This document shows, one piece after another, positions 4,689 through 26,231 of a stretch of DNA of 64,000 nt. Position 1 is the first letter of the stretch. Each line of letters starts with the position of its first letter. A program made the position numbers and the translations under genes. The notes under the pieces are model-generated. The model searched no databases. It had not been told where the DNA came from and worked only from the letters and a program-made list of their open reading frames with translations. This DNA comes from an uncultured Lachnospiraceae bacterium (GTDB taxonomy: Bacteria; Bacillota; Clostridia; Christensenellales; UBA1242). The stretch is from contig CAYMVO010000004.1 in the NCBI GenBank assembly GCA_964393975.1, positions 4,101 through 68,100 on the forward strand, given 5' to 3'.

Positions 4689-5097
4689 TGTAATTTATTT
4701 TATTTGTGGTCGTTTATCCTTAACTAATAACAACTCTTTGTTATCTGAGTTTTGCAAACTAATAACCTTTCTAGTTTTACCAGTGAACCCGACCATTTCT
4801 ACATGGGTACAATTTGTACCTATGTAGGTATTCAATTCATTGTCACGACTCCTTAAACGCTTAAGATATTGAGTTGGCTCCGAACTATCTGTCAATACTT
4901 CAATAACATCAACTAGACAAAATAGCCAGTCCTCTTCCTATTCATTCCAAAGCGTTCGTACCTTTTTATTTTCAAAAATTTTAATATTAGACAGTAAACT
5001 AAATCAGTTTATGCGTTATTTTACAAATCAAACAAACAATTACATATATAACGAAGTTTTAAAAAATCTTATATAATGACATTAAATTTAGCGTAAC

Positions 5098-7254: not shown

Positions 7255-7363
7255 AAGTAAAATCCTTTATTTTAAAATATTAATAGATTAATTATACCAA
7301 AATAAAGTGTAATTGACAATCAAATTATAAAGATTTTTATATTTATTTAAGGAAAAATCACCT

Positions 7364-8224
7364 TTAAATATATGCACGAGCGAGGATCACCGAAATACTA
7401 GAATATTTTATATTGATAGAAAAATTTTCTTCTAACGCCATAGGATCAGCAAGTTTGTCGAGTTCGTCTTGCATAACACTGAGTTTAAATGTTAATGAAG
7501 CTATCCGCACATCTCTACTATTACTAAACACACTGGAATATGGTATATATACTGATTCAAATTCTTTTTGGAGTTCTACCATACTAAGTTTTGCCATAGC
7601 AAAAGTTGTGTCCCCTAAATCATAGCTAACACTTACGGAATAAAGTTTTGTAAAAACGCTATGAAATAAATTTAACGCATCTTGCAAACACTTTTTATCG
7701 GCGTCGTCTAAGTTGTACTCCATTACGATTTTAGGTGATTTTAAAACGATGACTTCAGCGTTAGGTAGCGAGGATGAGATTTTTCCCAAAACACTCTTTG
7801 CGTCTTTCTCATTCTCATAAGCCGACACCAAGACCTTATATGTGAGGTCCTTTTTGTAGACATATCCAGCACCGCCGAGTTCCCTAACACGTTGAGAATA
7901 CATAGTTGCTTCTTCTATAGTATCATACTCACCTGATTGTACTGCGTAATAATTTATATTAGGGACGGAAATAACACCTTGAGACGTTGCATTAAAAACA
8001 GTTTTCACCACAAAATCTCCCGAAAAATACACGGCAACCGACACAAGCGCTAGTAAAATTGCTAATGCAAGTATGTTTCTACTTTTCTTCAACTTGACAC
8101 TTGATTTACGAAATTTATACGCAACGCCATACTCGTTAGCTTGCCCTGTAAAGATTTGCTCTTGTTCCCACTTATCTTGTGTCCATTCAGCTTGAAAATT
8201 ACTATTTTTTTTGTTTATACTCAT
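7364..8224 (-). CDS. SPOR domain membrane protein
   Basis: 286 aa; single TM ILALAILLALVSVAVYF; SPOR-like YYAVQSGEYDTIEEATMYSQRVRELGGAGYVYKKDLTYKVLVSAYENEKDAKSV. Confidence 0.65.
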   Translation of the reverse strand: MSINKKNSNFQAEWTQDKWEQEQIFTGQANEYGVAYKFRKSSVKLKKSRNILALAILLALVSVAVYFSGDFVVKTVFNATSQGVISVPNINYYAVQSGEYDTIEEATMYSQRVRELGGAGYVYKKDLTYKVLVSAYENEKDAKSVLGKISSSLPNAEVIVLKSPKIVMEYNLDDADKKCLQDALNLFHSVFTKLYSVSVSYDLGDTTFAMAKLSMVELQKEFESVYIPYSSVFSNSRDVRIASLTFKLSVMQDELDKLADPMALEENFSINIKYSSISVILARAYI

Positions 8225-8319
8225 AGTACAATATATGTCTATGCTATTTTAAAAATAACTTTTGAATAATTTTAAAATAAGGGGCAAATATTGATAAATA
8301 ATTATAAGGAGAATATGAA

Positions 8320-8610
8320 ATGAAATTAGTACCTTTGTTTGATAAAATCGTTTTAAAACATATCAAACCAAAAGAAAACGTCGACCTCATTTTACCTGAG
8401 AGTATTAGCGAAAGTCCTAGTCTTGGCGAGGTGGTTTGTGTCGGGATAGGTGGCAAAGTTGATGGGAATGAAATTGAAATAGTCTTAAAAGAAAAAGACA
8501 AAGTTCTTTTCCATAAGTATGTAGCTAGCGAATTCACCTATCAAGGTGAAACGCTCTACATTATAAAGCAAGGTGACATACTTTGCATTTTGGAGGATAA
8601 AGATGAGTAA
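8320..8610 (+). CDS. groES: co-chaperonin GroES
   Basis: 96 aa; KLVPLFDKIVLK start; typical Cpn10 length; immediately precedes groEL. Confidence 0.9.
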   Translation: MKLVPLFDKIVLKHIKPKENVDLILPESISESPSLGEVVCVGIGGKVDGNEIEIVLKEKDKVLFHKYVASEFTYQGETLYIIKQGDILCILEDKDE

Positions 8611-10156
8611 AGTTATTATCGGTATTGACAGTCTAAAAGAATTGGAAAAAGGCATTGATACGCTAGCGGAAGCGGTTAAATGCACACTTGGACCAAAAGG
8701 CAAAAATGTTGTTATAAAGACTCTAGGCACCCCTCTCATCACAAATGATGGTGTAACTATCGCAAAATCTATCACGCTAGATAGTGACTTGCAAAATATA
8801 GGTGCAATGCTTATAAAAGAAGCAAGTATAAAAACAAATGAACTCGCTGGAGACGGTACAACCACCGCTTGCGTCTTAGCACAAAGTATAATAAAAGAGG
8901 GTATAAAAAATATAATTGCAGGGGCAAACCCTATTGAATTAAATTTGGGTATAAACACCGCTCTTAATCTTGCACTGAAAGAATTACAAAACATATCAAG
9001 ACCACTAAACGCAGATAAGGACATTGAGCAAATTGCAAATATTAGTTGCGCCGATACTAATATTGGTAAACTAATTAGCGAGGCATACAAGACAATCGGT
9101 CGTGATGGAGTCATCACACTCACCGAAGGTCAACAACTCAAAACCACTTTAGATATAGTAAATGGTATCAAGATAGATAGAGGTTTTACGAGTACATATT
9201 TTTGCACAGATATGACAAAGGAGGTCGCTGAATACTCAAACCCACTCATACTGCTTGTAGATGATAAACTAGATAATTTTAATGCACTAGTCTCCGTAAT
9301 ACAATACTCTATCTCAGTAAATCAACCACTTGTAATACTCGCAAATGATTATAGCGAGGATGTTTTAAGTGCGATTTTAATTAATAAATTAAAGTCAAAT
9401 TTGAAATGTTTACCGCTAAAATCTCCCGCTTATGGCACACAGAGAAAAGATATTTTATCAGATCTAGCGTTAATATTTGAAACAAAAGTATTTACCAATG
9501 ACCTAATGTCAAATTTAGATTTTAATCAATTAGGAAATTTAGAAAAAGTTATAACCACAAAATACGAAACTACTTTTATAAAGACAAAAACAAATGATTT
9601 AGTAGAGGATAGATTATATAGTTTACAAAAACAGTTTGCCGAAACAAGCGACCAAAATATCAAAAATCTTTTGCAAGATAGAATATCAAAATTAAAAGGT
9701 AAAGTCGCCGTTATAAAGGTCGGCGGAGCGAGTGATATTGAGGTGAACGAACGCAAACTAAGAGTGGAGGACGCTATATTTGCGTGTAAATCAGCGGTAA
9801 CTGAAGGCATCGTTATAGGTGGCGGAAGCGTGCTACTCAAAATCAAAAAAATAGTAGAAAGTAAATTGAATGATTTATGTGGTGATAAAAAGTTAGGTGC
9901 CCACATTTTATTAAAAACTCTTGAAGCGCCTCTAAGACAAATAGCAAAAAATGCTGGACTAGATGATGGTGTCATAGTGCAAAAGGTTGCGGACTCTAAT
10001 GATACAAATTATGGTTATGACGCACAAAATAATGTGTTTGGCGATCTAAAAAAGCTAGGTATAATAGATCCTACAAAAGTCATAAGGTGCGGACTGCAAA
10101 ATGCAGTTTCGGTAGCGACCACCATTCTCACGACTAACGCAATTATATGTGATTAA
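8603..10156 (+). CDS. groEL: chaperonin GroEL (divergent, no GGM tail)
   Basis: Start set at ATG 8603 (GGAGG 8592-8596), overlapping the groES stop by 8 nt. GPKGKNVVI, AGDGTTTA, VTEGIVIGGG motifs; 517 aa ending ...TTNAIICD. Confidence 0.9.
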   Translation: MSKVIIGIDSLKELEKGIDTLAEAVKCTLGPKGKNVVIKTLGTPLITNDGVTIAKSITLDSDLQNIGAMLIKEASIKTNELAGDGTTTACVLAQSIIKEGIKNIIAGANPIELNLGINTALNLALKELQNISRPLNADKDIEQIANISCADTNIGKLISEAYKTIGRDGVITLTEGQQLKTTLDIVNGIKIDRGFTSTYFCTDMTKEVAEYSNPLILLVDDKLDNFNALVSVIQYSISVNQPLVILANDYSEDVLSAILINKLKSNLKCLPLKSPAYGTQRKDILSDLALIFETKVFTNDLMSNLDFNQLGNLEKVITTKYETTFIKTKTNDLVEDRLYSLQKQFAETSDQNIKNLLQDRISKLKGKVAVIKVGGASDIEVNERKLRVEDAIFACKSAVTEGIVIGGGSVLLKIKKIVESKLNDLCGDKKLGAHILLKTLEAPLRQIAKNAGLDDGVIVQKVADSNDTNYGYDAQNNVFGDLKKLGIIDPTKVIRCGLQNAVSVATTILTTNAIICD

Positions 10157-10204
10157 CAAAAAATCTTGCTTTAAAACCACAAAGCAAGATTTTTTATATA
10201 CAAA

Positions 10205-11074
10205 TTATCTATTTTTTGCGTGGAAAATCAAACCAATAGTACCAGGTCCTGCGTGTGCACCTATTACTGGACCTATAGGTTGCATCCAAATATCAGCATC
10301 ATCACCTATAGCCTGCTTGATTAAATCACGAGTATACTCAGCATACTCAACGTTATCAGCGTGAATGATGACTATAGGATAATCTTTTACATTATCACCT
10401 AATTGCACCAAATAATCGACCAATGTCCTCACACCTTTTTTGAAACCGCGAGCGGTATTAACCTTTTCAATTTTACCATTTGATTTAATGCTCAAAATAG
10501 GCTTCATAGCCAAACAGTTACCAATGAGCGCGACTGTCGGACTCACCCTACCGCCTTGTTTTAGATATTTCAAATCTTCCACAACAAAATATGTAGCGTA
10601 CTTGTCCCTATTATCCTCTACCCATTTTATAATCTCGTCATCACTTGCGCCGTTTTTCCAAAGCAACGCGGACATATAGACAATGATTCCCGCTCCCATA
10701 CAAATAGATTTCGTATCAACGGTCTTTATAGTCCTATCAGGGTATTTTTCTTTTAGCGACTTAATCGCCTTATTCATTGAGGCAAAAGTACCGCTCATCT
10801 CACTGCTAAAATGCACATATATAATATCATCACCATTCTTTAAATGTGGCTCAAAATAATTAATATAATCGTATTCGTTTAATGCGTGAGTCTTTACACT
10901 TGCCCCATTACGCATACCCTCAAAAAACTTAGCAAAATCTGTACTACGACCAAAATCGTAACCAATCTCATCTCCACCATTTATACTATAAGGCATCTCA
11001 ATAGTTTGTATACCCAACTCATCTATTTTATCATACCATAATTCGCAATCGCTATCGCAAAAGAAAACACTCAT
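10205..11074 (-). CDS. DegV family fatty-acid-binding protein
   Basis: 289 aa; DegV-like N-terminus FFCDSDCEL and C-terminal GPVIGAHAGPGTIGLIF. Confidence 0.8.
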   Translation of the reverse strand: MSVFFCDSDCELWYDKIDELGIQTIEMPYSINGGDEIGYDFGRSTDFAKFFEGMRNGASVKTHALNEYDYINYFEPHLKNGDDIIYVHFSSEMSGTFASMNKAIKSLKEKYPDRTIKTVDTKSICMGAGIIVYMSALLWKNGASDDEIIKWVEDNRDKYATYFVVEDLKYLKQGGRVSPTVALIGNCLAMKPILSIKSNGKIEKVNTARGFKKGVRTLVDYLVQLGDNVKDYPIVIIHADNVEYAEYTRDLIKQAIGDDADIWMQPIGPVIGAHAGPGTIGLIFHAKNR

Positions 11075-11209
11075 TTTTTCCTCCGTAAAAATCTTATAAT
11101 ATTCTCACTCTAAAACTATAAAGCGATGAAAAATTCACATAGTATTTTATAAATACTATTGACAAATTTCTACTTTACTATAGCACATAATTTAATAAAT
11201 GTCAAAGTG

Positions 11210-11725
11210 TTACACAATGTTTTCATAAATATTTTTTGCAAACTTTACTTTTTCATAATAAATTTTTGTTTCTTTGTATGGTTTGTCCTCTAACAATATG
11301 TCTGTTTTTAACCACTCGGTCACACGCCCCTCACCAGCATTGTATGCCATAATCACTTGTTTAAATTCGCCAAACCTATTGTATAAATAACTCAGATACG
11401 CACATCCAAGCATTATATTGACCTTGTAGTCGTATAAATTGATTTCATTATTGTAACATATTTTTGTAGCAATGTACTTAGCAGTCTCGGGCATTAGTTG
11501 CATCACACCTATTGCACCAGCTTTAGAGACGGCGTTTGTATCAAAATCACTTTCACATTTTGCGACCGCCAACGCCACCGCATACGGCACATCATACTCT
11601 TCACAATACATTTTAAACGTATCTTTATATAAAATAGGATATAAAACTCCCCTCAAAAAATACACACTCATAAATATCATAATAGTGAAAACGCACACAA
11701 CAAAAAAAGATTTTGATTTACTCAT
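11210..11725 (-). CDS. lytic transglycosylase (SLT domain), membrane anchored
   Basis: 171 aa; N-terminal TM; catalytic region AKCESDFDTNAVSKAGAIGVMQLMPETA and AYNAG. Confidence 0.85.
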   Translation of the reverse strand: MSKSKSFFVVCVFTIMIFMSVYFLRGVLYPILYKDTFKMYCEEYDVPYAVALAVAKCESDFDTNAVSKAGAIGVMQLMPETAKYIATKICYNNEINLYDYKVNIMLGCAYLSYLYNRFGEFKQVIMAYNAGEGRVTEWLKTDILLEDKPYKETKIYYEKVKFAKNIYENIV

Positions 11726-12019
11726 ACTAATATTTTAATCAAAACCTTTTTCAATTATTCTTTATGGCTCAATATTAGCGATGTTTTTAGCGCAAGTCTT
11801 TTTGTAGTAGACATACATAACGCTAGCAAAAGTCACCGCCAAAACACCGATAAACACTGTAACGCTTATGTATGTTTGACTTACTGAAAACTTGAACACC
11901 ATAATGTTTAATAGATAACACCCACTGCAAGTCAAATCTTTCACTAACGTAGTTGTATCATATTGAAAATTAAATTGCAAGCGCTTGCAAAATTTATTTT
12001 TTAGTAGTATTATATATTT

Positions 12020-14404: not shown

Positions 14405-16951
14405 TTACTCTTGCTCGCTTTTAATATCATCTGAAATATTTTCAGCGACCACGACACCATTGATTTCATCGTTTGCATTTTCGCTTGTCTCTTCAAGCTC
14501 TTCGTGTTCTACCACTGCCACTGACACAATTTTAGCACCATTAGCGAGTTTCATTATCCTAACGCCCTTAGTGACTCTACCAATCTTTCTAATATCAGTA
14601 ATAGGTGTCCTTATAATAGTACCATTATCAGTAATCATAATGACGTCTTGAGTCTCATCCACTGTCATAAATGCCACTAGTCCACCGGTGAGTTCGTTAA
14701 ACACCCCCGCCTTAGTACCTTTACCGCCACGACCTTGCTCTCTGTACTCAGCGATATCCGTTCTCTTGCCGTAGCCGTTTTCCGTGATAGTCAAAATCTC
14801 GGTACCCTCACTCACAATAGTCATACCAACAACGGTCTCGCCGTTAGATAGATTTATACTCTTGACACCTTGCGCACTACGAGAGGTGTTTCTTATTATG
14901 CCCTCATTAAAGTTTATACACTTACCGCTAGAAGATCCCAATAAAATGTTATTTTCACCGTTAGTCAAATGTACACCAATGAGTTCATCACCCTCACGTA
15001 AAGTGATAGCAATTTTACCGTTCTTTCTAATTTTATCAAATTCTTTAGACTCAGTCTTTTTGATAAGTCCGAGTTTTGTAGCCATAATAAAGTTGCCCGC
15101 ATCACCCTCTTTTCTTCTAACCACAGCAGACACTCGCTCGGTCGCATCCAAAGGTAATAGGTTTATAATAGCCCTACCCTTAGCGGTCCTTTGCGCCTCA
15201 GGTATCTCGTATGCCTTGATTACATACACTTTGCCTTTATTAGTAAAGAATAACAAATCATCGTGTGTATTAGTGGTGAATAGTCTCTCCACAAAATCTT
15301 CATCTTTAGTCTTATGCGCGGTCACACCGACACCACCTCTATGTTGCGCACGATATTCACTGACAGGCAAACGTTTTACATAACCTAAATGTGTCATACT
15401 AATAACAACGTCCTCTCTAGGTATCAAATCAGCAATATCAATATCATCATAATTGATACATATCTCACTTAGTCTAGGAGTGTTGTATTTATCTTTTATC
15501 TCTAAAATTTCTTTCTTAATGATTTCTAGTATTCTAGTTGGAGTGTTCAAAATATCGGTCAATTCAACAATCAATTTTTCTAGTTCGACTAGTTCCTCTT
15601 GTAGTTTGTGTACCTCAAGACCTGTCAATCTTTGAAGTTTCATATCAAGAATAGCGATTGATTGTTTTTCACTGAGCTCAAATCTCTCGCAAAGTTTTAC
15701 AATAGCCTCATTTTTCTCGCTACTAGCCTTTATAATAGCAATAACTTCATCAATATTCGCTAGTGCTATCACTAGACCTTTTATGATGTGCTCTCTCTCT
15801 TTTGCTTTTTCCAAATCAAACTTTGTTCTACGATATATAACTTCTTTTTGATGCTCTAGATAATAGTAAATAATCTCTCTAAGATTTAAAATCCTAGGTT
15901 GTCCATTGACCAATGCCAAGAAAATGATACCGCTCTTGATTTGTAGTTGGGTGTGTTTAAACAACTGATTAAGCACGACATTAGGTTGATAATCTTTCTT
16001 GATATCAATAACGACTCGCATACCGTGTCTATCAGATTCTTCTCTTAGGTCACTAATACCCTCTATTCTCTTATCTTTTACAAGATTAGCGATTTGCTCT
16101 ACTAGTTTTGCCTTGTTTACTTGATAAGGTATTTCGGTGACAATGATTCTACTCTTGCCGTTTTCTAGTTCCTCTATCTCGGTCCTCGCTCTCAAAACGA
16201 CACCGCCACGACCAGTCTTGTACGCTTGTATGATAGGTGTTCTGCCCATAATAAGCGCACCCGTAGGATAATCTGGTGCAGGAATGATATCAATCAGTTC
16301 GTCAACAGTGATATCAGGGTTGTCAATCATTGCTACAACGCCATCAATCACCTCTCCCAAGTTGTGCGGAGGAATATTTGTCGCCATACCCACAGCAATA
16401 CCGTCACTACCATTGACAAGCAGGTTAGGAAATCTACTAGGTAATACGGTTGGTTGCATCAAAGTATCATCAAAGTTAGGATAAAAATCTACCGTTTCTT
16501 TGTCAATATCCCTTAGCAATTCATCGGTGATTTTGCTAAGTCTCGCCTCAGTATAACGATAAGCAGCTGCGCCGTCACCGTCTACAGAACCAAAATTCCC
16601 GTGTCCATCAACGAGTGGACAACGAATACTAAAGTCTTGCGCAAGTCTTACTAGTGCATCGTACACGGAACTATCGCCGTGAGGGTGATATTTACCCAAA
16701 ACATCACCGACAATTTTAGCACATTTTCTAAAAGGTTTGTCACTAGTGAGTCCCATTTCACCCATACCATAAAGTATACGTCTATGTACAGGCTTTAGAC
16801 CGTCTCGCACATCAGGAATAGCACGACTGACATTTACCGCCATAGCATAGGCAATAAACGAATTTTTCAATTCATTAGCAACATCTATCTCAATATATTT
16901 AGTTTTATCAACTATTTTTTCTAGTTCGGTTGAATAATCTTTTTTCTTCAT
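14405..16951 (-). CDS. gyrA: DNA gyrase subunit A
   Basis: 848 aa; HRRILYGM, HPHGDSSVYDALVRLAQ, AAAYRYTEARL (catalytic Tyr), C-terminal beta-pinwheel repeats and acidic tail. Confidence 0.97.
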   Translation of the reverse strand: MKKKDYSTELEKIVDKTKYIEIDVANELKNSFIAYAMAVNVSRAIPDVRDGLKPVHRRILYGMGEMGLTSDKPFRKCAKIVGDVLGKYHPHGDSSVYDALVRLAQDFSIRCPLVDGHGNFGSVDGDGAAAYRYTEARLSKITDELLRDIDKETVDFYPNFDDTLMQPTVLPSRFPNLLVNGSDGIAVGMATNIPPHNLGEVIDGVVAMIDNPDITVDELIDIIPAPDYPTGALIMGRTPIIQAYKTGRGGVVLRARTEIEELENGKSRIIVTEIPYQVNKAKLVEQIANLVKDKRIEGISDLREESDRHGMRVVIDIKKDYQPNVVLNQLFKHTQLQIKSGIIFLALVNGQPRILNLREIIYYYLEHQKEVIYRRTKFDLEKAKEREHIIKGLVIALANIDEVIAIIKASSEKNEAIVKLCERFELSEKQSIAILDMKLQRLTGLEVHKLQEELVELEKLIVELTDILNTPTRILEIIKKEILEIKDKYNTPRLSEICINYDDIDIADLIPREDVVISMTHLGYVKRLPVSEYRAQHRGGVGVTAHKTKDEDFVERLFTTNTHDDLLFFTNKGKVYVIKAYEIPEAQRTAKGRAIINLLPLDATERVSAVVRRKEGDAGNFIMATKLGLIKKTESKEFDKIRKNGKIAITLREGDELIGVHLTNGENNILLGSSSGKCINFNEGIIRNTSRSAQGVKSINLSNGETVVGMTIVSEGTEILTITENGYGKRTDIAEYREQGRGGKGTKAGVFNELTGGLVAFMTVDETQDVIMITDNGTIIRTPITDIRKIGRVTKGVRIMKLANGAKIVSVAVVEHEELEETSENANDEINGVVVAENISDDIKSEQE

Positions 16952-16963
16952 ATCGTAACCCTT

Positions 16964-18895
<1,932 letters not shown>

Positions 18896-19162
18896 TTAAA
18901 TAAGATATAATCTTATTTAGCTAAGTAAATTATAGCACATTTTGCGTGAAAATGAAAGTGTTTTAAGGTTTTTTATATCAAAAAAATTTATCAATTTTCA
19001 CATTTCATAAATATTTGTATTCTAAAACACAAAAATATAGCCCTATTTTCAATATTTTTTTGTTTTACGACTCCCTATACAGCGGAAAATTATTTAAAAA
19101 GCAAAATTTTATGTCAAAATTCAAGCATTTCTCACTCATAAAAACGCTTTTTTATGTTTTAC

Positions 19163-19199
19163 TTAAAAATTAAAACCGCATAAAAAATCTTTATGCGGT
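19163..19199 (-). terminator. intrinsic terminator after HipT-like kinase paralogue 3
   Basis: Perfect ACCGCATAAA-5 nt-TTTATGCGGT hairpin followed on the minus strand by TTTTAATTTTT. Confidence 0.8.
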
Positions 19200-19212
19200 C
19201 ATAATGGATATC

Positions 19213-20142
19213 TTACAATGATTTTTCAAAATTGTCTATAATGACTTTAGGTCGTATTATGTTTTTCTTATAACAATTCACTAAATCTTTTCTATATTCA
19301 AAAATCTTTTGGCAGTTTTGCAAATATACCTCATCAAACTCTTTTGCCGAGCGATTGTATAAAGTCGTCAAAATCTCGCCAATTTTCAAATCGTTAATGT
19401 CTGATACAAACTTTTTAATTTCTTTATTATTTTTCATTTCCACCACTATTTGCTTAGCCAAATTGTCCACTTCATCATAGTCATACATTTCGTTAGTAAT
19501 AGATAATAATTGATAATCGCCCTTTTCGTATTGATTTAGACTGACAGTAATATATCCGCCTACTTGATGACTGCTCAAGTTAAAACAAGCGCCATTATCA
19601 AACATAGGAGCCATCTTCAGTCCCTTATCACTTATCAAAAACTCAATATTTCCACGGTGCCTATCTGTTTGTGAAAAATAATAATCTAATATAGCCATTT
19701 TGACCAAATCAGACCGTAGTCTTTGACTATCCACAGACAATCCATGTAGACTAGCAAACCGACCTACCGCATTAACGACGTCATCTACACTGGTTTTCAT
19801 ACACATTGAGCACTCATTATTAACGCTACGAATTATTCTACCTAGATTTATTGCTTCTTTTGTATCTTCCTCCCAAAAATGCTCTATCAAAACCCCGTGA
19901 CTCGACTTATTATTTATATCCAAGCACGCAAAGAACGCATTTACACAATTACAACCAAGTATTTTACAAACATAACTATAAAGGACCTCACCAAAACTAG
20001 TAGGCGTCTCATCATTACGAGCAAACCCCATATTCGCTTTGTAAATAAATTTTTTTCCAGTCGGTGTGGTTATTAGCTTTTTTGCCATAATACCTGCTGT
20101 CATTTCCGAGATTTTAAACTCATATTCGTTTAAATTAATCAT
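19213..20142 (-). CDS. HipA-core (HipT-like) Ser/Thr kinase paralogue 3, no N-subdomain
   Basis: 309 aa; GKKFIYKAN, PTSFGEV, DYYFSQTDRHRGNIEF (D-x-H-x-x-N catalytic loop), MAPMFDNG; GAGGTG RBS. Confidence 0.65.
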   Translation of the reverse strand: MINLNEYEFKISEMTAGIMAKKLITTPTGKKFIYKANMGFARNDETPTSFGEVLYSYVCKILGCNCVNAFFACLDINNKSSHGVLIEHFWEEDTKEAINLGRIIRSVNNECSMCMKTSVDDVVNAVGRFASLHGLSVDSQRLRSDLVKMAILDYYFSQTDRHRGNIEFLISDKGLKMAPMFDNGACFNLSSHQVGGYITVSLNQYEKGDYQLLSITNEMYDYDEVDNLAKQIVVEMKNNKEIKKFVSDINDLKIGEILTTLYNRSAKEFDEVYLQNCQKIFEYRKDLVNCYKKNIIRPKVIIDNFEKSL

Positions 20143-20371
20143 TTAATCACCTCTTAAAAAAATAATTAATTAGACATACTCATATAAAAACCTTTTAGCA
20201 TTTTTGCTATTCGTTAAATAGGTAGTTATTCGTTTAATCTAATAGTATTATATCATACTATTATTTTTTTAAAAAGGGGGTATTCAAAATTTATTATACA
20301 ATTTTTATATGTCTAATTTTTTTATTATAAGCATATATTGAATTAAGATTTAGACCACCTAAGGAGTAACA

Positions 20372-21052
20372 ATGAAAGATAATAAAAAAGTTGTTTTAGC
20401 TATCATTTTTATAACAATTTTCTCTATTATAGGTTGTTTTGTTTTGAACGCTTTAGGTCTAGACGATATAAGCAAAATCAAAAATATTATAAGTGATAGC
20501 GCTTTAGGATATGTGATATACACACTCCTTCTCACCTTGCAAATAATCTTTATCCCTATAAACTCTATGGTGCTTATAGTCCCTGCTATGCTAATTTTTG
20601 GCGCTGTTAAGGCATTTATCCTTAGTCTAATTGGATTGGTCATAGGCTCTATAATAACCTTTTATTTAGGTAGGATTTTTGGTAATCAATTAGTGTCGTG
20701 GATGGTTGGATACGAAAAAAGCGAAGAATTAAAGAAAAAGTTAGGAGCAGGTGGCAAACTAATGCTCCCGATACTCTTTCTTATTCCTATATTTCCCGAT
20801 GAACTTATTTGTCTAGTCGCTGGAATAAGCAATATAAAAATCGGTTACTTCACACTAGTCACAATAACGACTAGAGCAATTGATTTAGCGTTTACTTGTT
20901 TTATTGGTGCTATTATACCTTTTCACGGTTGGTGGTTACTACTTTGGGGGATACTATTAATATTATCATTCATAGCATCATATCTATTAGCAAAATATCA
21001 AATATTATTAAAACAGTGGGTAGAAAATCTTTACACAAAGAAAAAGAGGTAA
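20372..21052 (+). CDS. TVP38/TMEM64 (DedA-related) family membrane protein
   Basis: 226 aa; multiple TM segments; PDELICLVAGIS motif; AAGGAG RBS. Confidence 0.7.
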   Translation: MKDNKKVVLAIIFITIFSIIGCFVLNALGLDDISKIKNIISDSALGYVIYTLLLTLQIIFIPINSMVLIVPAMLIFGAVKAFILSLIGLVIGSIITFYLGRIFGNQLVSWMVGYEKSEELKKKLGAGGKLMLPILFLIPIFPDELICLVAGISNIKIGYFTLVTITTRAIDLAFTCFIGAIIPFHGWWLLLWGILLILSFIASYLLAKYQILLKQWVENLYTKKKR

Positions 21053-21059
21053 TTACAAA

Positions 21060-22010
21060 CTACCTCGTAAACGCCATATCTTCATCAACATCAAAATTTT
21101 TAGAATCTTCAGTGTATTTCTCTTTGTAATAATTTTTTAATAAATTTTTTCTATAATTAAATACATCAGCGCAATTTGTCACATATTTATAATTAAAATC
21201 TTTTTCAGACTCATCATAAATTTTTTTCAATAGACTATCAATATCTAGTCTATAAATATCCTCAACAAAGTGTCTCATCTCTTTATCATTTTTTACCACC
21301 TTGCTAATCTGGTCCACCAAATCAATAATGCAACACTCACCCGTCCCCGTCAAACTTTGCCTATTAATTCTCAAATACTGAGCACTACCAATATTGCGTA
21401 AACCTTTTGGCATATCTATTTCATTTCCGCTCATTGAACGCCACAAATTAAAACAATAACCATTATCAAATATAGGTGCGAGCTTCATTTCCTTTTCACT
21501 CACCAAAAACTCTATATTGTCAAAATGTCTATCCGCTTGCGCAAAAAAATAATCTAAAATAGTAAGTTTTATCAAGGATGCGCGACTCTCTTCCTCGTTA
21601 TATTTCAATCCATTATTTTTAGCAAATGACTTTGTCAAAGTGAGTATTTTATCTACGACCATCTCATCACCGTCCATCTCACCAAACAAATTACATCTTA
21701 GAGCAATCTCACCATAACTAAGCGACTCCAATGTATCCTCTTCCCAAAAATAATCTATGAGGGTACCGCTCCTGAGTCTTTCGCCAAGCTCCATTTTTGC
21801 AAACTCCACATTGACACAATTACACCCTAGAGTTTTACAAACTTCGCTATAAAACACTTCGCCAAAACTAGTCGGCAAATCACCTTTATCTCGATATCCA
21901 AAATTTGCCTTAAAGACATATTTCCCATTATCAGTTATAACAATGCTTTTAGGTGTAGAACCTTCCAAAAGTTGCATCGTTTTATATTGTATCCTTCTCA
22001 AATCGACCAT
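21060..22010 (-). CDS. HipA-core (HipT-like) Ser/Thr kinase paralogue 2, no N-subdomain
   Basis: Start set at MVDLRRIQ (ATG 22010, GGAGTG RBS). GKYVFKAN, PTSFGEV, DYFFAQADRHFDNIEF, LAPIFDNG. Confidence 0.65.
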   Translation of the reverse strand: MVDLRRIQYKTMQLLEGSTPKSIVITDNGKYVFKANFGYRDKGDLPTSFGEVFYSEVCKTLGCNCVNVEFAKMELGERLRSGTLIDYFWEEDTLESLSYGEIALRCNLFGEMDGDEMVVDKILTLTKSFAKNNGLKYNEEESRASLIKLTILDYFFAQADRHFDNIEFLVSEKEMKLAPIFDNGYCFNLWRSMSGNEIDMPKGLRNIGSAQYLRINRQSLTGTGECCIIDLVDQISKVVKNDKEMRHFVEDIYRLDIDSLLKKIYDESEKDFNYKYVTNCADVFNYRKNLLKNYYKEKYTEDSKNFDVDEDMAFTR

Positions 22011-22257
22011 AAAATCACTCCTAACCAATAGCTATAGAGACTAAGATTAATACAAACACGCGCTCACACGCTTTATAAAATCTTAATAAACTCATCAAAC
22101 TAAAATCTTAGATTTTTATTTTTTAGCTATTTAAACCACCCACAAACCCATTAAAGTAAACTCATACAAAGTAATCTAAAAATGACAAGTCTCTCTCGCA
22201 TTATTCTTATATTTTTTAATAGTTTAGTAAATAGTTTCTATAAATAGCCTTGCAAAA

Positions 22258-23250
22258 CTAAATAAACCTTTCCTGCGCGCACGCATTGTTATTTATCGTA
22301 TGAGGAATGTTTTTAGTCTTCATACTCTTAATATCTTTCATCATTTGTGTATGTTCAACGGCATCCATTCTTCTAGCAAAATTTTTAAGCAACTGCTTTC
22401 TATACTCAAAAATTGCTCGACAATTTTCCACGTAGTCAATATCAATCTGCTTGTCCGATTCGATATAGACATCTTTTAAAATCTCATCCATATCCAAATT
22501 GTAAATATTAGATACGAGTTCTCTTATTTCAGGGGACTTTTTCGCAGTAACATAAATTTGCTTTGCTAAATCTTTCGTCTTATCGTCAGCACTATCAGTA
22601 TTAGCCATTCGCAAAAATTGTGGATACCCGCGCTCTATATACTCACTTCTGGATACGATATCGCCGTTTTCCTTTTCGCGCCACAAGTTAAAGCAAAAAC
22701 CATTATCAAATATAGGTGCAAGCTTCATCTCTTTTTTGCTTATCAAAAACTCTATATTATCAAAATGTCTATCCGCTTGCGCAAAAAAATAATCTAAAAC
22801 CGCCATTTTTGTGAGACATTTTTTAGCGTTTTTAGCGTCAAATTTCAGTCCCATATTCTTCGCAAAAAAACTAGACAAATCAATCACATCATCTATAACC
22901 ACATCATCACCAAAAGAAAGGTCTAGCAAATCACTTTTTTGCATAATATCGCCAAAACTAATCGTCTCTAACGTATCTTTTTCCCAAAAATAATCAATGA
23001 GTGTACCGTGACTTAAATTTTTATCAATAAACATTTGCGCAAAGACCGCATTTACACAATTACAATTAAGTCTTTTACAAACTTTACTATAAAACACTTC
23101 ACCAAAACTAGTCGGTACTTCTTTTTTCTCTACAAACCCGCAATTCGCTTTAAAGACATATTTACCACTATCAGTCACAATGAGTCTTTTAGCATTGATG
23201 CCATATACCATATTTACGCTTTTGTGTCTTATTTTGCATAAGTCAATCAT
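22258..23250 (-). CDS. HipA-core (HipT-like) Ser/Thr kinase paralogue 1, coupled to HipS-like ORF
   Basis: Start set at MIDLCKIR (ATG 23250..23248), overlapping the upstream stop as ATGA. GKYVFKAN, PTSFGEV, DYFFAQADRHFDNIEF, LAPIFDNG. Confidence 0.7.
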   Translation of the reverse strand: MIDLCKIRHKSVNMVYGINAKRLIVTDSGKYVFKANCGFVEKKEVPTSFGEVFYSKVCKRLNCNCVNAVFAQMFIDKNLSHGTLIDYFWEKDTLETISFGDIMQKSDLLDLSFGDDVVIDDVIDLSSFFAKNMGLKFDAKNAKKCLTKMAVLDYFFAQADRHFDNIEFLISKKEMKLAPIFDNGFCFNLWREKENGDIVSRSEYIERGYPQFLRMANTDSADDKTKDLAKQIYVTAKKSPEIRELVSNIYNLDMDEILKDVYIESDKQIDIDYVENCRAIFEYRKQLLKNFARRMDAVEHTQMMKDIKSMKTKNIPHTINNNACAQERFI

Positions 23251-23573
23251 ACAGCTACTTCCACCCAATATTTATCTTGATTTTGCGACAAGAAAGCAAA
23301 CTTTTTGAGCATGGTAAAATCGTCATCTTTTTTAGATATTTTAGCGGATAGCATAATATCCATTCTCATACGCACACTCTCTACAATCTTACCAAACTCA
23401 CTAAAAAGCTCTTTACTTCTCAAATTGTTTGAGCCACTCAAACTATAAAAATTACTAGTAACGTATTTTTTAAACGCACTTTCACCTTCTATATTTGAAT
23501 TGTAGACATATTCATCGCCGTCTTTGGTCAATTCACCTAAAGTAATTTCTTTAAAATGTAGTATAATTTTCAT
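23247..23573 (-). CDS. HipS-like small protein (resembles HipA N-terminal subdomain 1)
   Basis: 108 aa from ATG 23573 (GAGG 5 nt upstream). KEITLGELTKDGDEYVYNS parallels the HipA N-terminus (..VGELTKL..). TGA overlaps the kinase ATG. Confidence 0.55.
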   Translation of the reverse strand: MKIILHFKEITLGELTKDGDEYVYNSNIEGESAFKKYVTSNFYSLSGSNNLRSKELFSEFGKIVESVRMRMDIMLSAKISKKDDDFTMLKKFAFLSQNQDKYWVEVAV

Positions 23574-23589
23574 AAACACCTCTACCTAA

Positions 23590-23618
23590 AGTATAACATT
23601 AACGTCAAAATATGTCAA
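23590..23618 (-). promoter_or_regulatory. sigma-A-type promoter for the HipS-like/HipT-like pair
   Basis: Minus strand TTGACA-17 nt-TATACT, 16 nt upstream of the RBS. Confidence 0.55.
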
Positions 23619-23630
23619 TAGTGATATCAT

Positions 23631-23680
23631 AAAACATTGTGTCGCTTCGTCTAGCAACTAGACCTATAAACGACACAATA
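23631..23680 (-). terminator. terminator after the lipoprotein gene
   Basis: ATTGTGTCG...CGACACAAT 9-bp arms with inner TCTAG/CTAGA pairing, then GTTTTAT on the minus strand. Confidence 0.55.
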
Positions 23681-23694
23681 TCACATAGTTTCTA

Positions 23695-24321
23695 TTAATA
23701 CTTAACGCTAAAATCAATATTATAATTTATATCATTATATGTATAAGTAAACTCAGCATTTTTCATAGTGCTATCTTGATTTAAGGCAATAGTAATATTT
23801 AAATCTTTTACACCCTCAAACAAAAACACACTATAAAAATCATTCTTTACGCTAGCAGAAAATGTATCCTTTTCTTTATTTATAGTAAAATTTTCAAAAT
23901 AATTTGTTTTTATAGGATTTTTAACACTACTCCACTCGCCAGTGACTTCTGTCACCAGTCCTTCACGCCATATTATTTCACCATTTACGGTTTCTCCAAC
24001 CTGCCCGTCAAAATAATACTTTGTACTTTCGGTGATTTTATACAAATCGGTACTATCAAGTGATAATTCATTTAGCTTTTTAGTAATAGTCTTTAAAGTT
24101 AGCATTTTCTTGCCGTCTTTTTCACTGACTACAAGCGTTTGACTATCATACAATTCGTGCTCTCCCGCCATAAAAGAAACGACTTTTGTAAATTCGGTTC
24201 CAACACTAGCGTTGTTATACGCATTTATAAAATCGTCCTCATTCAACTCTTTTGCGCATCCCGCAATCAAAAAACACATACATATCACGCACGCAAAAGA
24301 CGCTAAAATCTTACCTCTCAT
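23695..24321 (-). CDS. lipoprotein, unknown function
   Basis: 208 aa; lipobox FLIAGC (Cys22); ATG overlaps the stop of the upstream gene (ATGA at 24318-24321), with AGGAGG inside the upstream ORF end. Confidence 0.7.
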   Translation of the reverse strand: MRGKILASFACVICMCFLIAGCAKELNEDDFINAYNNASVGTEFTKVVSFMAGEHELYDSQTLVVSEKDGKKMLTLKTITKKLNELSLDSTDLYKITESTKYYFDGQVGETVNGEIIWREGLVTEVTGEWSSVKNPIKTNYFENFTINKEKDTFSASVKNDFYSVFLFEGVKDLNITIALNQDSTMKNAEFTYTYNDINYNIDFSVKY

Positions 24322-26231
24322 ACAAACCTCCTATTCACAAAAGCAAGTGGCAACACACTCACCACCGAGCCCACCGAAACAAGTACATTACGCCAAATAT
24401 TTTTGCTCTTGTCGGCACTAATACTCAAATCGTCATTTATGCTTTTGCACAAATCGTTGTATTGAGTGATTTTTTGACTCAAAGTCTCGTAATCTACAAG
24501 TGTTTTATCCGCATCACTTAGTGTATTATACATTTTTATAGCGGACGCTATCACCTCATATTTACCAATATCAACATCACCAACAATTTCAATTGCTTGA
24601 TTAACGCTAGACACTAAAAAACTTGTCTTGAAATAAATTGAAACAACATTAGAGTCAAAATAATTCTCATCACCTTTCAAATAAACGGTTATATCATAAT
24701 CTTCGTTTTCATTTAATCCGCAAAGTTCACTCCCCTCGCTCAATTCATCATTTAGGCTTATCACAAAAGACCTATCAAAAATAATCTTATCACCACCAAC
24801 GATATAATTTACTTTATCTAACACTTGTGGCGCTTTTTCTATAATAAAATCTACGCTTTTGGTAGGCAATGTATAATTTTGATTGTTTATGCTAGCAGTT
24901 ACGGTATAAGTACCAGCATTTATAGCGTTGCCACTATAAGAAAGTTTTACTTGCACCGCACCTGTGTCAAAGTCCAATACACCACCAATAGTAGCGGTGA
25001 CATTGTTTTGTTTTAATCCATTATAAACGACTCTATCATAGTTATCAAATTCAAGCGACAACACTTTTGGTTCCACGACTATATTTATAACTTTTTGTTC
25101 TATATTATAGTTCACCGTATCATAAGGTATGAGCTTCATTACATAACCCGAATTATTTACAATAGGATACAGCATTTCATTTTCCCACTTAAACTCGCCT
25201 AATTTATGATAATTATTAAATGTAGCATTTTTCAACTGCTCTCCATACACCACACTAGACACGCTAGGAAAATCGGCATTAATACTCGCTTTCTTTATAT
25301 CAACATATAGCGTTATAGTCAAATCGTTATAGTTTGCACTATCAAGGTTGTAAATCGCACTAAAACTTTTATTCGCGCAAGAGATTTCTTGCTCGGCGTC
25401 TACCCAGCTAAACCCATTTTTTAGACCGACATCTTTTAATCTTATCCCTTCAAAATATGTGATGGAAAGCGTAGGCTTTGATATATCATCTTCGCTCACG
25501 GTTGCTTTATTTACCACCACCATATACTGACCACTAAGAGAATAATTTGTATTTAAAGCGGTCGCCGTTATCGTGTAATTTCCCGCGCTAAACACCGTAT
25601 CTTGACTTAGCTCAATATTTGCATCGTCGCCACTTATCACGCCATTAAGCGTATACTTAAGATTTTGATATGTCCTATCAAAAGTCAACTCCTCAAACTC
25701 AATAGTCAATGCTTTTGGCGTTATATAAAACTCGCTTGAAAGGTTAAGCGTCTCATAAAACGAATGCGACACCGTTGCAGTCACGACATACGCTTTACTA
25801 CTAGCATTCACTTGCCCGTTGCCACTATATTCCACAGTAGCAGTCTCGCCGTAAGGAAGAATGAGCGTATTTACGCTAAGACTCTTTTTTGTGCCGTCAT
25901 ATACAAAAGATGCAGTCGGCAAAGTAATATTATCAATAATTGCAGGTTTTATTATCAAGGTTGCAGTAAGCTCTTGTGTCTCGCCGTTTAGCTCAAAAGT
26001 TGCGGTCGCATTGTAGGTATTTGGCTCTGTCCCAACATTATTTTCATACATCACCACAATAGAAGAGTCCAACCCAACGACGTATATACCTTGCTCGTTA
26101 CCGTTATAGTAGACTGTTTTATCCTCAAAAATGATTTCGCTAGTACCCTCGCTAGCAAAAAGCGTCTCAATATTTACATTTACTAGCAAAGCACATAGCA
26201 TAAAACAAAATAAAAATATGTGTCTTTTCAT
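24318..26231 (-). CDS. cell-surface protein with MBG-like (YGX-type) repeat modules
   Basis: 637 aa; signal peptide; repeated modules carrying YNG..Q, GTYTVTA/GNYTITA, NYTL/NYSL signatures; C-terminal hydrophobic anchor VLVSVGSVVSVLPLAFV. Confidence 0.55.
   Translation of the reverse strand: MKRHIFLFCFMLCALLVNVNIETLFASEGTSEIIFEDKTVYYNGNEQGIYVVGLDSSIVVMYENNVGTEPNTYNATATFELNGETQELTATLIIKPAIIDNITLPTASFVYDGTKKSLSVNTLILPYGETATVEYSGNGQVNASSKAYVVTATVSHSFYETLNLSSEFYITPKALTIEFEELTFDRTYQNLKYTLNGVISGDDANIELSQDTVFSAGNYTITATALNTNYSLSGQYMVVVNKATVSEDDISKPTLSITYFEGIRLKDVGLKNGFSWVDAEQEISCANKSFSAIYNLDSANYNDLTITLYVDIKKASINADFPSVSSVVYGEQLKNATFNNYHKLGEFKWENEMLYPIVNNSGYVMKLIPYDTVNYNIEQKVINIVVEPKVLSLEFDNYDRVVYNGLKQNNVTATIGGVLDFDTGAVQVKLSYSGNAINAGTYTVTASINNQNYTLPTKSVDFIIEKAPQVLDKVNYIVGGDKIIFDRSFVISLNDELSEGSELCGLNENEDYDITVYLKGDENYFDSNVVSIYFKTSFLVSSVNQAIEIVGDVDIGKYEVIASAIKMYNTLSDADKTLVDYETLSQKITQYNDLCKSINDDLSISADKSKNIWRNVLVSVGSVVSVLPLAFVNRRFV

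What the first reader, a model, noticed from the sequence alone, without database searches (positions are those of the whole stretch)
22258..23618. HipS/HipT-like split kinase pair, ATGA-coupled, with no HipB partner
A 108-codon ORF (23247..23573) reads like N-subdomain 1 of HipA: KEITLGELTKDGDEYVYNS parallels the HipA ..VGELTKL.. N-terminus, followed by a basic/helical ..DIMLSAKISKKDDDFTMLKKFAF segment. Its TGA overlaps the ATG of a 330-aa ORF (plus strand tcat at 23247-23250 = ATGA). That ORF carries the HipA core-kinase landmarks (GKYVFKAN, PTSFGEV, DYFFAQADRHFDNIEF, LAPIFDNG) but lacks the N-subdomain. This is the gene split known from the tripartite HipBST system of E. coli O127, where small HipS is the antitoxin and HipT the kinase toxin. 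Here no HTH (HipB-like) ORF exists. Immediately upstream are a terminator (23631-23680) and a dedicated near-consensus promoter (TTGACA-17-TATACT). I cannot match a bicistronic HipS-HipT module without HipB, in a low-GC Gram-positive housekeeping neighbourhood, to any characterised system. It is the best candidate for a new toxin-antitoxin, defence or signalling module in this window.
Basis: partly seen in the sequence, partly recalled or inferred. Interest (0 to 1): 0.8.

Follow-up and report, generated by a model that had tools for sequence, protein, structure and literature searches.

The report
HipS-like protein coupled to short kinases
A small protein with the fold of the HipS antitoxin is translationally coupled to a short HipA/CtkA-type protein kinase, with no DNA-binding partner; this kind of pair has been predicted by others but never tested, and here it sits in an array with two more kinase copies and a decayed second small gene.

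Summary
A 108-aa ORF (23247-23573, minus) overlaps a 330-aa ORF (22258-23250) by ATGA, behind a near-consensus promoter. With an 82-sequence alignment the small protein models at pLDDT 97.7. Its 20 best PDB matches are all HipS or the HipA N-terminal domain. The kinase keeps the Gly-rich loop, the catalytic D-x-H-x-x-N motif and the Mg-binding Asp in register with HipA. It starts at the Gly-rich loop, and its closest solved relative is H. pylori CtkA, not HipT. No HTH gene is present here or in relatives.

Two corrections. First, HipS-type partners without HipB are already predicted: hipJS/hipIN (Gerdes 2021) and PADLOC candidate PDC-M03, whose A models the kinases hit (E about 1e-17).

Relatives mostly have kinase first, then small gene. 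This lineage has the reverse order, at a vertically inherited site between tsaD and gyrBA.

Best reading: a HipS-inhibited kinase toxin or abortive-infection module. Inhibition, toxicity and target are inferred, not shown. The orphan kinases argue against a strict one-to-one toxin-antitoxin pair. Verdict: a new variant of a known but untested kind, of moderate interest.

The parts
23636..23679 (-). Hairpin that ends the upstream operon (MBG-domain surface protein plus 208-aa lipoprotein-like gene) and insulates the module
   Evidence: RNA fold -25.3 kcal/mol, z = -5.6, followed by GUUUUAU. A weaker inner stem is listed by the scan.
23590..23618 (-). Sigma-70-type promoter-like site TTGACA-17-TATACT with TG extension
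   Evidence: 11 of 12 matches, the best site in 18900-24500. Consensus match only; function not shown.
23247..23573 (-). Small gene S: 108-aa protein with HipS-like (HipA N-subdomain-1) fold
   Evidence: Conserved ORF. 107 representatives in 1.84e9 proteins. AF2 pLDDT 97.7. Foldseek top 20 are HipS or HipA N-domain. Couple_hipA in 11 of 82 relatives. PDC-M03B in up to 12 of 82 relatives. dN/dS about 0.12.
22258..23250 (-). Kinase K3: 330-aa short HipA-superfamily (CtkA-like) Ser/Thr kinase, ATGA-coupled to S
   Evidence: HipA_C E = 2.9e-4, below the gathering score. Family profile against CtkA 3akj E = 1.1e-8, full length. hhalign against HipA E = 5e-5 with Gly-rich loop, DxHxxN and Mg-Asp in register. 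PDC-M03A E = 1.3e-16. Invariant G17, K21, K34, D160, N165, D182.
22040..22175 (-). Decayed remnant of a second small gene upstream of K2
   Evidence: The translation reads FDEFIKIL*SV*ARV; compare LFDEFSEIVKNVRARAD of the second small gene of L001. blastn shows 73% identity over 70 nt to that gene, E = 5e-6. Weak tblastn hits from several family members recur here. The boundaries are approximate.
21060..22010 (-). Kinase K2: 316-aa paralogue (51% identical to K3) with no intact small-gene partner
   Evidence: HipA_C E = 1.7e-6. PDC-M03A E = 1.3e-17. Catalytic residues retained. Identity matrix.
21046..21066 (-). Terminator-like hairpin plus T-run at the end of K2, the likely end of the S-K3-K2 transcript
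   Evidence: 9-bp stem followed by UUUUUCUUU. -9.7 kcal/mol, z = -3.3.
19213..20142 (-). Kinase K1: 309-aa orphan paralogue (47% identical to K3) beyond the opposite-strand VTT gene and directly upstream of gyrB-gyrA
   Evidence: HipA_C E = 2.5e-5. PDC-M03A E = 6e-18. Catalytic residues retained. No small-gene remnant in the 339-nt spacer before gyrB.
19174..19200 (-). Terminator-like hairpin after K1
   Evidence: 12-bp stem followed by a T-rich tail.

Best explanation
The locus encodes a HipS-type small protein and a short HipA-superfamily (CtkA-like) Ser/Thr kinase. Both are made from one transcript by translational coupling: the ATGA overlap, with the kinase's Shine-Dalgarno sequence lying inside the last codons of the small gene. 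By analogy with HipS-HipT, the small protein most likely binds the kinase in trans at the place where HipA carries its own N-subdomain-1, and so keeps it inactive. When the small protein is lost, degraded or displaced (for example on phage infection), the kinase would phosphorylate an essential cell component and arrest growth. This would make it a HipB-less toxin-antitoxin or abortive-infection module of the hipJS / PDC-M03 kind. In this lineage the gene order is small gene first, and the kinase has been duplicated into an array: K3 with an intact partner, K2 with a decayed partner, and K1 with none. Shown here: the fold and homology of both proteins, intact catalytic motifs in all three kinases, conserved coupling, strict adjacency of the two families in every context examined, purifying selection, and absence of any HTH gene. 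Inferred, not shown: binding, inhibition, toxicity, the trigger and the substrate.
For: Small protein. The AF2 model has pLDDT 97.7. The top 20 PDB fold matches are all HipS (7ab3_E, 7vkb_B, 8ezr_A; probability 0.98-0.99, TM 0.55-0.61) or the HipA N-domain (3tpt TMq 0.63; 7czo). Couple_hipA is the only recurrent Pfam family, in 11 of 82 relatives. hhalign against HipA N-subdomain-1 is colinear over 90 columns, E = 0.0065. Kinase. HipA_C hits have E = 1.7e-6 to 2.9e-4. CtkA matches at E = 1.1e-8 over the full length. hhalign against HipA gives E = 5e-5, with YGINAK aligned to AGAQEK, DRHFDN to DGHAKN and LAPIFD to MTPLYD. Pairing. The small gene lies next to a kinase homologue in every context examined: the window, L001-L005, L051, L054, L055, L057-L061 and eight Christensenellales species. 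The ATGA junction is conserved. Link to defence or TA candidates. The kinases hit PADLOC PDC-M03A at E = 1e-16 to 6e-18, and family members hit PDC-M03B, best 1.5e-8. PDC-M03 was found embedded in BREX, DISARM and type I RM systems. The hipJS and hipIN families are described in PMC8262856. Selection: dN/dS is about 0.12 for S and about 0.19 for K3.
Against: K2 has lost its own small gene and K1 never shows one, yet both keep every catalytic residue. If each kinase were a toxin that needs its own antidote, this should be lethal, unless the single small protein cross-neutralises kinases only 47-51% identical to K3. The module has stayed at one chromosomal site (tsaD ... VTT-gyrBA) across relatives down to 47% small-protein identity. 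Relatives also sit among core replication and transcription genes, not in defence islands or mobile elements. There is no autoregulator (HTH). No Ser/Thr is conserved next to the Gly-rich loop, so HipA/HipT-style autophosphorylation control is not evident. In HipA the homologous domain is an integral lid of an active kinase, so a trans copy could complete the kinase rather than inhibit it. The window's own small protein hits no Pfam, NCBIfam or PADLOC model. The Foldseek E-values are modest (0.035-0.06).
Confidence: 0.6

Rival explanations
1. The small protein is a completing or activating subunit, not an inhibitor. Small protein plus kinase would rebuild a HipA-like two-part enzyme that acts as a vertically inherited regulatory kinase, possibly on replication or DNA-topology proteins. 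The extra kinases would be stand-alone or trans-served paralogues with diverged substrates.
For: In HipA the homologous domain is part of the active enzyme (PMC8262856). Orphan kinases K2 and K1 are tolerated with intact catalytic motifs. The locus has been fixed and syntenic for a long time. Family members repeatedly neighbour gyrBA, a gyrB/A-like pair, recR-dnaX, dnaA-dnaN, rpoBC and nrdDG-dut. CtkA, the closest solved relative, works as a stand-alone kinase with no known antitoxin.
Against: In both HipBST systems studied, HipS is the antitoxin (abstracts). Related cassettes (PDC-M03) occur embedded in defence systems. The S/K genes evolve 3-8 times faster at non-synonymous sites than tsaD, and their G+C is lower than the flanks, as for accessory genes. 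Neighbourhood near replication genes may only reflect an origin-proximal location.
Confidence: 0.22
2. A dedicated anti-phage abortive-infection system, a PDC-M03 relative: a phage factor displaces or destroys the small protein and frees the kinase array. This is a functional refinement of the best explanation rather than a separate mechanism.
For: All three kinases give full-length PDC-M03A hits. Relatives of the small protein give PDC-M03B hits. PDC-M03 was defined by embedding in BREX, DISARM and type I RM systems. Paralogue expansion and fast evolution fit an arms race.
Against: PDC-M03 is itself untested. None of the contexts examined here shows neighbouring defence genes or a mobile element. 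The window's small protein does not reach any PADLOC model. There is no HIRAN or other sensor domain.
Confidence: 0.3
3. The resemblance of the small ORF to HipS is fortuitous, and it is an unrelated small protein or a non-coding upstream ORF.
For: The window sequence itself has no direct Pfam, NCBIfam or PADLOC hit. The family profile finds no HipS or HipA among PDB sequences. Foldseek E-values are only 0.035-0.06.
Against: The family has 107 representatives of constant length around 108 aa. The protein is under purifying selection. All top 20 fold matches are HipS or the HipA N-domain, aligned over the full length. Couple_hipA and PDC-M03B hits recur in relatives. It is always adjacent to a HipA-like kinase.
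Confidence: 0.03

Closest known systems
hipJS modules (HipJ short kinase plus HipS-only putative antitoxin; Gerdes, Baerentsen and Brodersen 2021, PMC8262856)
   Same: Two genes only. The kinase is short (279-321 aa in the paper, 309-330 aa here) with the Gly-rich loop near the N-terminus and no N-subdomain-1. The partner is a HipS-like protein of about 100 aa with no HTH and no HIRAN domain. Most relatives of this family have the same kinase-then-small-gene order.
   Different: In the window lineage the order is reversed (small gene then kinase, ATGA-coupled). The kinase is multiplied into an array with one decayed partner gene and orphan copies. hipJS itself has never been tested experimentally.
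PADLOC phage defence candidate PDC-M03 (equivalent to the hipIN type: HipA-like kinase plus HipS-HIRAN protein; Payne et al. 2024 bioRxiv 10.1101/2024.01.29.577857)
   Same: All three kinases match PDC-M03A models over their full length (E = 1e-16 to 6e-18). Up to 12 of 82 members of the small-protein family match PDC-M03B models (best 1.5e-8).
   Different: The window's small protein reaches no PDC-M03B model. The one source that describes the B protein calls it HIRAN domain-containing, whereas here there is no HIRAN domain. The locus is not embedded in BREX, DISARM or RM systems but lies between tsaD and gyrBA. The gene order is reversed.
HipBST of E. coli O127:H6 and Legionella pneumophila (PDB 7ab3, 7vkb, 8ezr)
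   Same: A small HipS-fold protein is encoded immediately upstream of, and overlapping, a kinase that lacks N-subdomain-1. The HipS chains are the best structural matches of the small protein.
   Different: There is no HipB gene. The kinase is not of the HipT family: there is no sequence-profile hit to HipT or HipA chains. It starts about 16 residues before the Gly-rich loop; HipT has about 55 residues there (my own recollection, not checked here). There is no conserved Ser/Thr at the loop.
CtkA (JHP0940) of Helicobacter pylori, PDB 3akj
   Same: It is the closest solved relative of the kinase by sequence: the family profile matches at E = 1.1e-8 over residues 5-282 of 325. The size is similar and the DRHxxN and APIFDxG motifs are shared.
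   Different: CtkA is encoded on the tfs3 conjugative element and is described as a secreted pro-inflammatory kinase. No HipS-like partner is reported for it. Identity to the kinases here is low.
HipA of hipBA (E. coli K-12)
   Same: The small protein corresponds to HipA N-subdomain-1. The kinase corresponds to the HipA core from the Gly-rich loop onward, with the catalytic and Mg-binding motifs in register.
   Different: The two parts are separate genes. About 150 N-terminal residues of HipA have no counterpart in the kinase. There is no HipB. Pfam HipA_C scores stay below the gathering threshold.

Membership tests
HipA-superfamily Ser/Thr kinase | Gly-rich loop (G-x-Q-x-K type) ahead of the ATP-binding Lys | tested here: met
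   G17 and K21 are invariant in 20 sequences, and K34 (FKAN) is invariant. hhalign puts YGINAK on HipA AGAQEK. The distant member P0012 reads GGIQEK.
HipA-superfamily Ser/Thr kinase | Catalytic motif D-x-H-x-x-N and Mg-binding Asp (xAPxxD) | tested here: met
   D160, R161, N165 and D182-N183-G184 are invariant in 20 sequences; H162 is invariant in the 13-sequence alignment. They are in register with HipA DGHAKN and PLYD and with CtkA DRHNGN and APIFDCG.
HipA-superfamily Ser/Thr kinase | Pfam HipA_C (PF07804) at or above the gathering score | tested here: not met
   21.0, 28.3 and 24.5 bits for K3, K2 and K1 against a cut-off of 30.5. This is a significant but sub-threshold, divergent branch.
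HipS / HipA N-subdomain-1 | The fold of HipS (three-stranded N-terminal sheet, helices, closing C-terminal strand) | tested here: met
   Model pLDDT 97.7. Foldseek top 20 are all HipS or HipA N-domain, probability up to 0.99, TM 0.55-0.63, 106-115 aligned columns.
HipS / HipA N-subdomain-1 | Sequence-profile similarity (Pfam Couple_hipA PF13657, or HipA N-terminal alignment) | tested here: inconclusive
   The window protein has no hit. Eleven of 82 relatives hit Couple_hipA, best 1.5e-4. hhalign against 21 HipA N-domains gives E = 0.0065, colinear. The family profile finds no HipS or HipA among PDB sequences.
HipBST tripartite system | A HipB (HTH) gene in the operon | tested here: not met
   No HTH-domain ORF between tsaD and gyrB in the window, nor in L001, L051, L007 and the others.
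HipBST tripartite system | Kinase of the HipT clade with Ser residues at the Gly-rich loop | tested here: not met
   No HipT chain is found by the kinase profile at E <= 1. Residues before G17 are not conserved as Ser/Thr.
hipJS (Gerdes 2021) | Short core kinase (about 280-320 aa) plus a HipS-only partner, with no HTH and no HIRAN | tested here: met
   The kinases are 309-330 aa and the partner is 108 aa with no other domain. The family definition is in PMC8262856.
hipJS (Gerdes 2021) | Gene order: kinase first, HipS downstream | tested here: not met
   Window, L001-L005, L051 and L055 have the small gene first. The order is kinase first in L006-L013, L054 and L057-L061.
hipJS (Gerdes 2021) | Placement of the kinase in the HipJ subclade of clade XI | not testable with these tools
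   The stored copy of Table S1 is cut before the clade XI entries.
PADLOC PDC-M03 | Both components match the PDC-M03A and PDC-M03B models | tested here: inconclusive
   A is met for all three kinases. B is not met by the window protein but is met by up to 12 of 82 relatives.
Type II toxin-antitoxin module | The toxin arrests growth and is neutralised by direct binding of the cognate antitoxin | not testable with these tools

The most novel reading that the evidence does not exclude
The module is not a selfish toxin-antitoxin pair. It is a domesticated, vertically inherited control system of low-G+C gut Bacillota, in which one HipS-like protein governs a growing set of CtkA-like kinases, including partnerless copies. 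These kinases would act on DNA-topology or replication proteins rather than on aminoacyl-tRNA synthetases. That would explain why independent lineages keep the pair next to gyrBA, a gyrB/A-like pair, dnaA-dnaN, recR-dnaX or nrdDG.
Probability: 0.12. Interest if true: 0.7.

Novelty: new variant of a known kind. Interest (0 to 1): 0.45.

Why it matters
HipS-only control of a HipA-type kinase, without HipB, has so far been only a bioinformatic prediction resting on two hipJS modules plus the untested PDC-M03 candidates. This work shows a family of at least about 100 sequence clusters in uncultured low-G+C gut Bacillota, with both gene orders represented. The window offers a natural experiment: one intact pair, one kinase whose partner gene has decayed, and one kinase with no partner. 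That makes it possible to test directly whether the HipS-fold protein is an inhibitor (an antitoxin that can act across paralogues) or a completing subunit. It also allows a search for the substrate of the CtkA-like branch, which is unknown for any bacterial target.

Tried and rejected
1. Direct Pfam, NCBIfam and PDB-sequence searches with the small protein gave nothing useful. The EntV hit at E = 0.15 is chance.
2. The first AF2 model, built from only 6 close homologues, reached pLDDT 70 and gave non-significant fold matches. It was replaced by the model from the 82-sequence alignment.
3. The small-family profile against PDB sequences found no HipS or HipA.
5. I tested whether the 637-aa MBG-domain protein upstream is related to the 648-aa gene downstream of the pair in Christensenellales. 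It is not: the latter is GyrB-like.
6. Small plus-strand ORFs upstream of the kinase in L007, L008, L010 and L013 were checked as possible HipB genes. They have no HTH domain and overlap a gene on the opposite strand.
7. I looked for a small-gene remnant between K1 and gyrB and found none; that spacer holds a terminator-like and a promoter-like site.
8. The third protein search, with the family profile, returned only unnamed, domain-less proteins of about 105 aa.
The nearest kinases there are in Christensenellales and uncultured Clostridia MAGs.
Full report
OBSERVATION. On the minus strand a 108-codon ORF (23247..23573) ends in a TGA that overlaps the ATG of a 330-codon ORF (22258..23250), giving ATGA at 23250-23247. 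Upstream lies the best sigma-70-like site of the 5.6-kb region scanned: TTGACA-17-TATACT, 11 of 12 matches, with a TG extension, at 23618..23590. Before it is a strong hairpin at 23636-23679 (-25.3 kcal/mol, z = -5.6) followed by GUUUUAU. That hairpin closes the upstream operon, which encodes an MBG-domain surface protein and a 208-aa lipoprotein-like protein. The small ORF is a real gene. Five database clusters and two further locus copies are 56-99% identical over all 108 residues. The ATGA junction is conserved in window, L001 (twice), L003 and L051, with a GAGGTG-like Shine-Dalgarno sequence lying inside the last codons (W-x-E-V). dN/dS against the L001 orthologue is about 0.12.

The same strand carries two more paralogues of the kinase. 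K2 lies at 21060..22010 (316 aa from the conserved ATG, 51% identical to K3). K1 lies at 19213..20142 (309 aa, 47% identical). A VTT-domain membrane-protein gene on the opposite strand separates them. All three keep the invariant G17, K21, K34, D160-R-H-x-x-N165 and D182-N-G. The 230-nt spacer upstream of K2 holds a decayed second small gene. One frame reads FDEFIKIL*SV*ARV, against LFDEFSEIVKNVRARAD in the second small gene of the related contig L001. blastn shows 73% identity over 70 nt (E = 5e-6), and weak tblastn hits from several family members fall on the same spot. The related contig L001 has the array small-K332-K314-small-K370 at the same site. A more distant relative, L051 (small protein 47% identical), has a single small-K308 pair there. 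All share the order tsaD, MBG protein, lipoprotein-like gene, module, VTT, then gyrB-gyrA where the contig extends that far (window and L051). So the site is old and vertically inherited, and the kinase array is a recent expansion. A terminator-like hairpin follows K2 (21066-21046) and another follows K1 (19200-19174). The likely transcripts are therefore S-K3-(remnant)-K2, and K1 on its own.

THE SMALL PROTEIN. It has no direct Pfam, NCBIfam, PADLOC or PDB-sequence match. A profile search of 1.84 billion representative proteins found 107 relatives, nearly all stand-alone proteins of 103-113 aa. With an 82-sequence alignment (A4) the AlphaFold2 model reached pLDDT 97.7 and pTM 0.89. A first model from 6 sequences had reached only pLDDT 70. 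Foldseek against the PDB put HipS of E. coli HipBST first (7ab3_E, probability 0.99, TM 0.55/0.58). [quoted passage not shown] All 20 best matches are of these two kinds and cover 93-115 columns. The E-values are modest (0.035-0.06). Eleven of the 82 relatives hit Pfam Couple_hipA (HipA N-terminal domain), the only family hit by more than two of them. hhalign of A4 against 21 HipA N-subdomain-1 sequences taken from Table S1 of Gerdes 2021 is colinear over 90 columns with E = 0.0065. I conclude that the small protein has the HipS / HipA N-subdomain-1 fold and is a remote homologue.

THE KINASE. Pfam HipA_C matches K3, K2 and K1 at E = 2.9e-4, 1.7e-6 and 2.5e-5, all below the gathering score. 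A 20-sequence family profile finds a single significant PDB sequence: H. pylori CtkA (3akj, E = 1.1e-8, residues 5-282 of 325). It finds no HipA or HipT chain at E <= 1. hhalign against nine HipA sequences gives E = 5e-5 with the motifs in register: YGINAK on AGAQEK, DRHFDN on DGHAKN, LAPIFD on MTPLYD. The kinase begins at HipA's Gly-rich loop, so about 150 N-terminal residues of HipA have no counterpart. [quoted passage not shown] No Ser/Thr is conserved next to the loop.

PAIRING AND DISTRIBUTION. In every context examined the small gene lies next to a kinase homologue (family-profile E = 1e-108 to 2e-6). The order is small gene first in the window, L001-L005, L051 and L055. It is kinase first in eight Christensenellales or uncultured Clostridia species representatives (L006-L013) and in L054, L057-L059, L060 and L061. 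Kinase first is thus the commoner arrangement, and the window's order is a derived variant. No HTH gene accompanies any of them. Close homologues are rare: 12 kinase and 5 small-protein clusters among 5.8 billion sequences. The species-representative scan returned no close match to the window's kinases (best 29-35% identity). The loci examined have 26-36% G+C.

COMPARISON WITH WHAT IS KNOWN. Gerdes, Baerentsen and Brodersen (PMC8262856) defined ten Hip kinase families by gene organisation. hipJS is a short kinase followed by a HipS-only putative antitoxin, and only 2 modules were found. hipIN is a short kinase followed by HipN, which is a HipS-like domain plus a HIRAN domain. PADLOC lists PDC-M03, a two-gene phage defence candidate. 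It was found by 'guilt by embedding' in BREX, DISARM and type I RM systems, as cassette FAM_00225>>FAM_01213, listed with the number 684 in the supplementary table. [quoted passage not shown] All three window kinases match PDC-M03A over their full length (E = 1e-16 to 6e-18). Up to 12 of 82 relatives of the small protein match PDC-M03B models (best 1.5e-8), although the window's own copy does not. A HipS-type partner without HipB is therefore already predicted in the literature, but not one of these systems has been tested. The window differs in four ways: the reversed, ATGA-coupled gene order; the absence of a HIRAN domain; the array with a decayed partner gene and orphan kinases; and the housekeeping location.

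MECHANISM. The most likely reading (0.6) is a HipS-inhibited kinase toxin or abortive-infection module, as set out in the best explanation. The steps from binding onward are inferred by analogy with HipBST, where HipS is the antitoxin (abstracts). The main difficulty is that K2 has lost its partner gene and K1 has none, yet both look catalytically competent. Either the single small protein neutralises kinases only 47-51% identical to K3, or those kinases are not toxic, or the small protein is not an inhibitor at all. The chief rival (0.22) is that it completes or activates the kinase, as the fused domain does in HipA, within a vertically inherited regulatory system. A phage-defence role (0.3) is a refinement that overlaps the best explanation, so these figures are not meant to sum to one.

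CONTEXT WORTH NOTING. Independent lineages keep the pair beside core information-processing genes. These are gyrB-gyrA (window, L051; NCBIfam scores above cut-off); a gyrB/A-like pair 13 nt downstream in eight Christensenellales species; recR-ybaB-dnaX; dnaA-dnaN; rpoB-rpoC; and nrdD-nrdG-dut. This may only reflect an origin-proximal position, and I did not test it statistically. The module segment has lower G+C (30-33%) than its flanks (38-41%). It also evolves faster than tsaD: dN is 0.13-0.29 against 0.04.

VERDICT. The finding is real, and the HipS-like assignment is correct. The claim of a system with no precedent is overstated, and the locus is more complex than described. It is a new variant of a known but experimentally untouched kind. 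Interest is 0.45.

Noticed in passing
window 21060-22010 and 19213-20142 (minus strand): Two further paralogues of the kinase (51% and 47% identical to K3), both with all catalytic residues intact. Neither has an intact small-gene partner, and K1 lies directly upstream of gyrB.
   Followed up: yes
window about 22040-22175 (minus strand): Decayed remnant of a second HipS-like gene in the spacer before K2, with in-frame stops and a missing 3' part. The related contig L001 has an intact copy at the equivalent place.
   Followed up: yes
L006-L013 (about 5850-12000), L051, L055, L057-L061; window 14405-18874: Members of the kinase/small-protein family in independent lineages sit next to core replication or transcription genes: gyrBA, a gyrB/A-like pair only 13 nt downstream, recR-ybaB-dnaX, dnaA-dnaN, rpoBC and nrdDG-dut. 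None sits in a defence island or mobile element. Not tested against a null model.
   Followed up: partly
L008 6900-9119: In one uncultured Clostridia MAG the small gene has lost its last 15 or so codons and is fused in frame to the downstream gyrB-like gene, giving a 739-aa ORF. This could be a real deletion or an assembly error.
   Followed up: partly
window 23695-26231 (minus strand): A 637-aa signal-peptide protein with MBG domains and a 208-aa lipoprotein-like protein (signal ...LIAGC) overlap by 4 nt. They are conserved immediately upstream of the module in L001, L002 and L051, and a hairpin and a promoter-like site separate them from it. The 208-aa protein has no family match.
   Followed up: partly
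window 18900-24500: G+C falls to 30-33% across the kinase array, the VTT gene and the lipoprotein-like gene, against 38-41% in the flanking gyrB and tsaD/prf genes.
   Followed up: partly
window 23251-23275; L001 10300-10327 and 12590-12614; L003 1296-1323; L051 6300-6327: The kinase's Shine-Dalgarno sequence (GGTGGAAG or GAGGTG) lies inside the conserved C-terminal codons (Y-W-x-E-V) of the small gene. Part of that peptide's conservation may therefore be a constraint at the nucleotide level.
   Followed up: partly
L019, L021, L036, L038, L040 and others, about 5000-6400: Lachnospiraceae and Clostridiales MAGs carry a different short kinase of about 271 aa. In L019 its 188-aa upstream partner, which overlaps the kinase gene, has an HTH_3 domain. 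That is a separate arrangement, closer to the HTH-partnered Hip organisations of Gerdes 2021.
   Followed up: partly
window 55501-55637 (minus) and 42348-42419 (plus): These are the only two Rfam matches above gathering score in the window: a ribosomal protein L10 leader and one tRNA.
   Followed up: no
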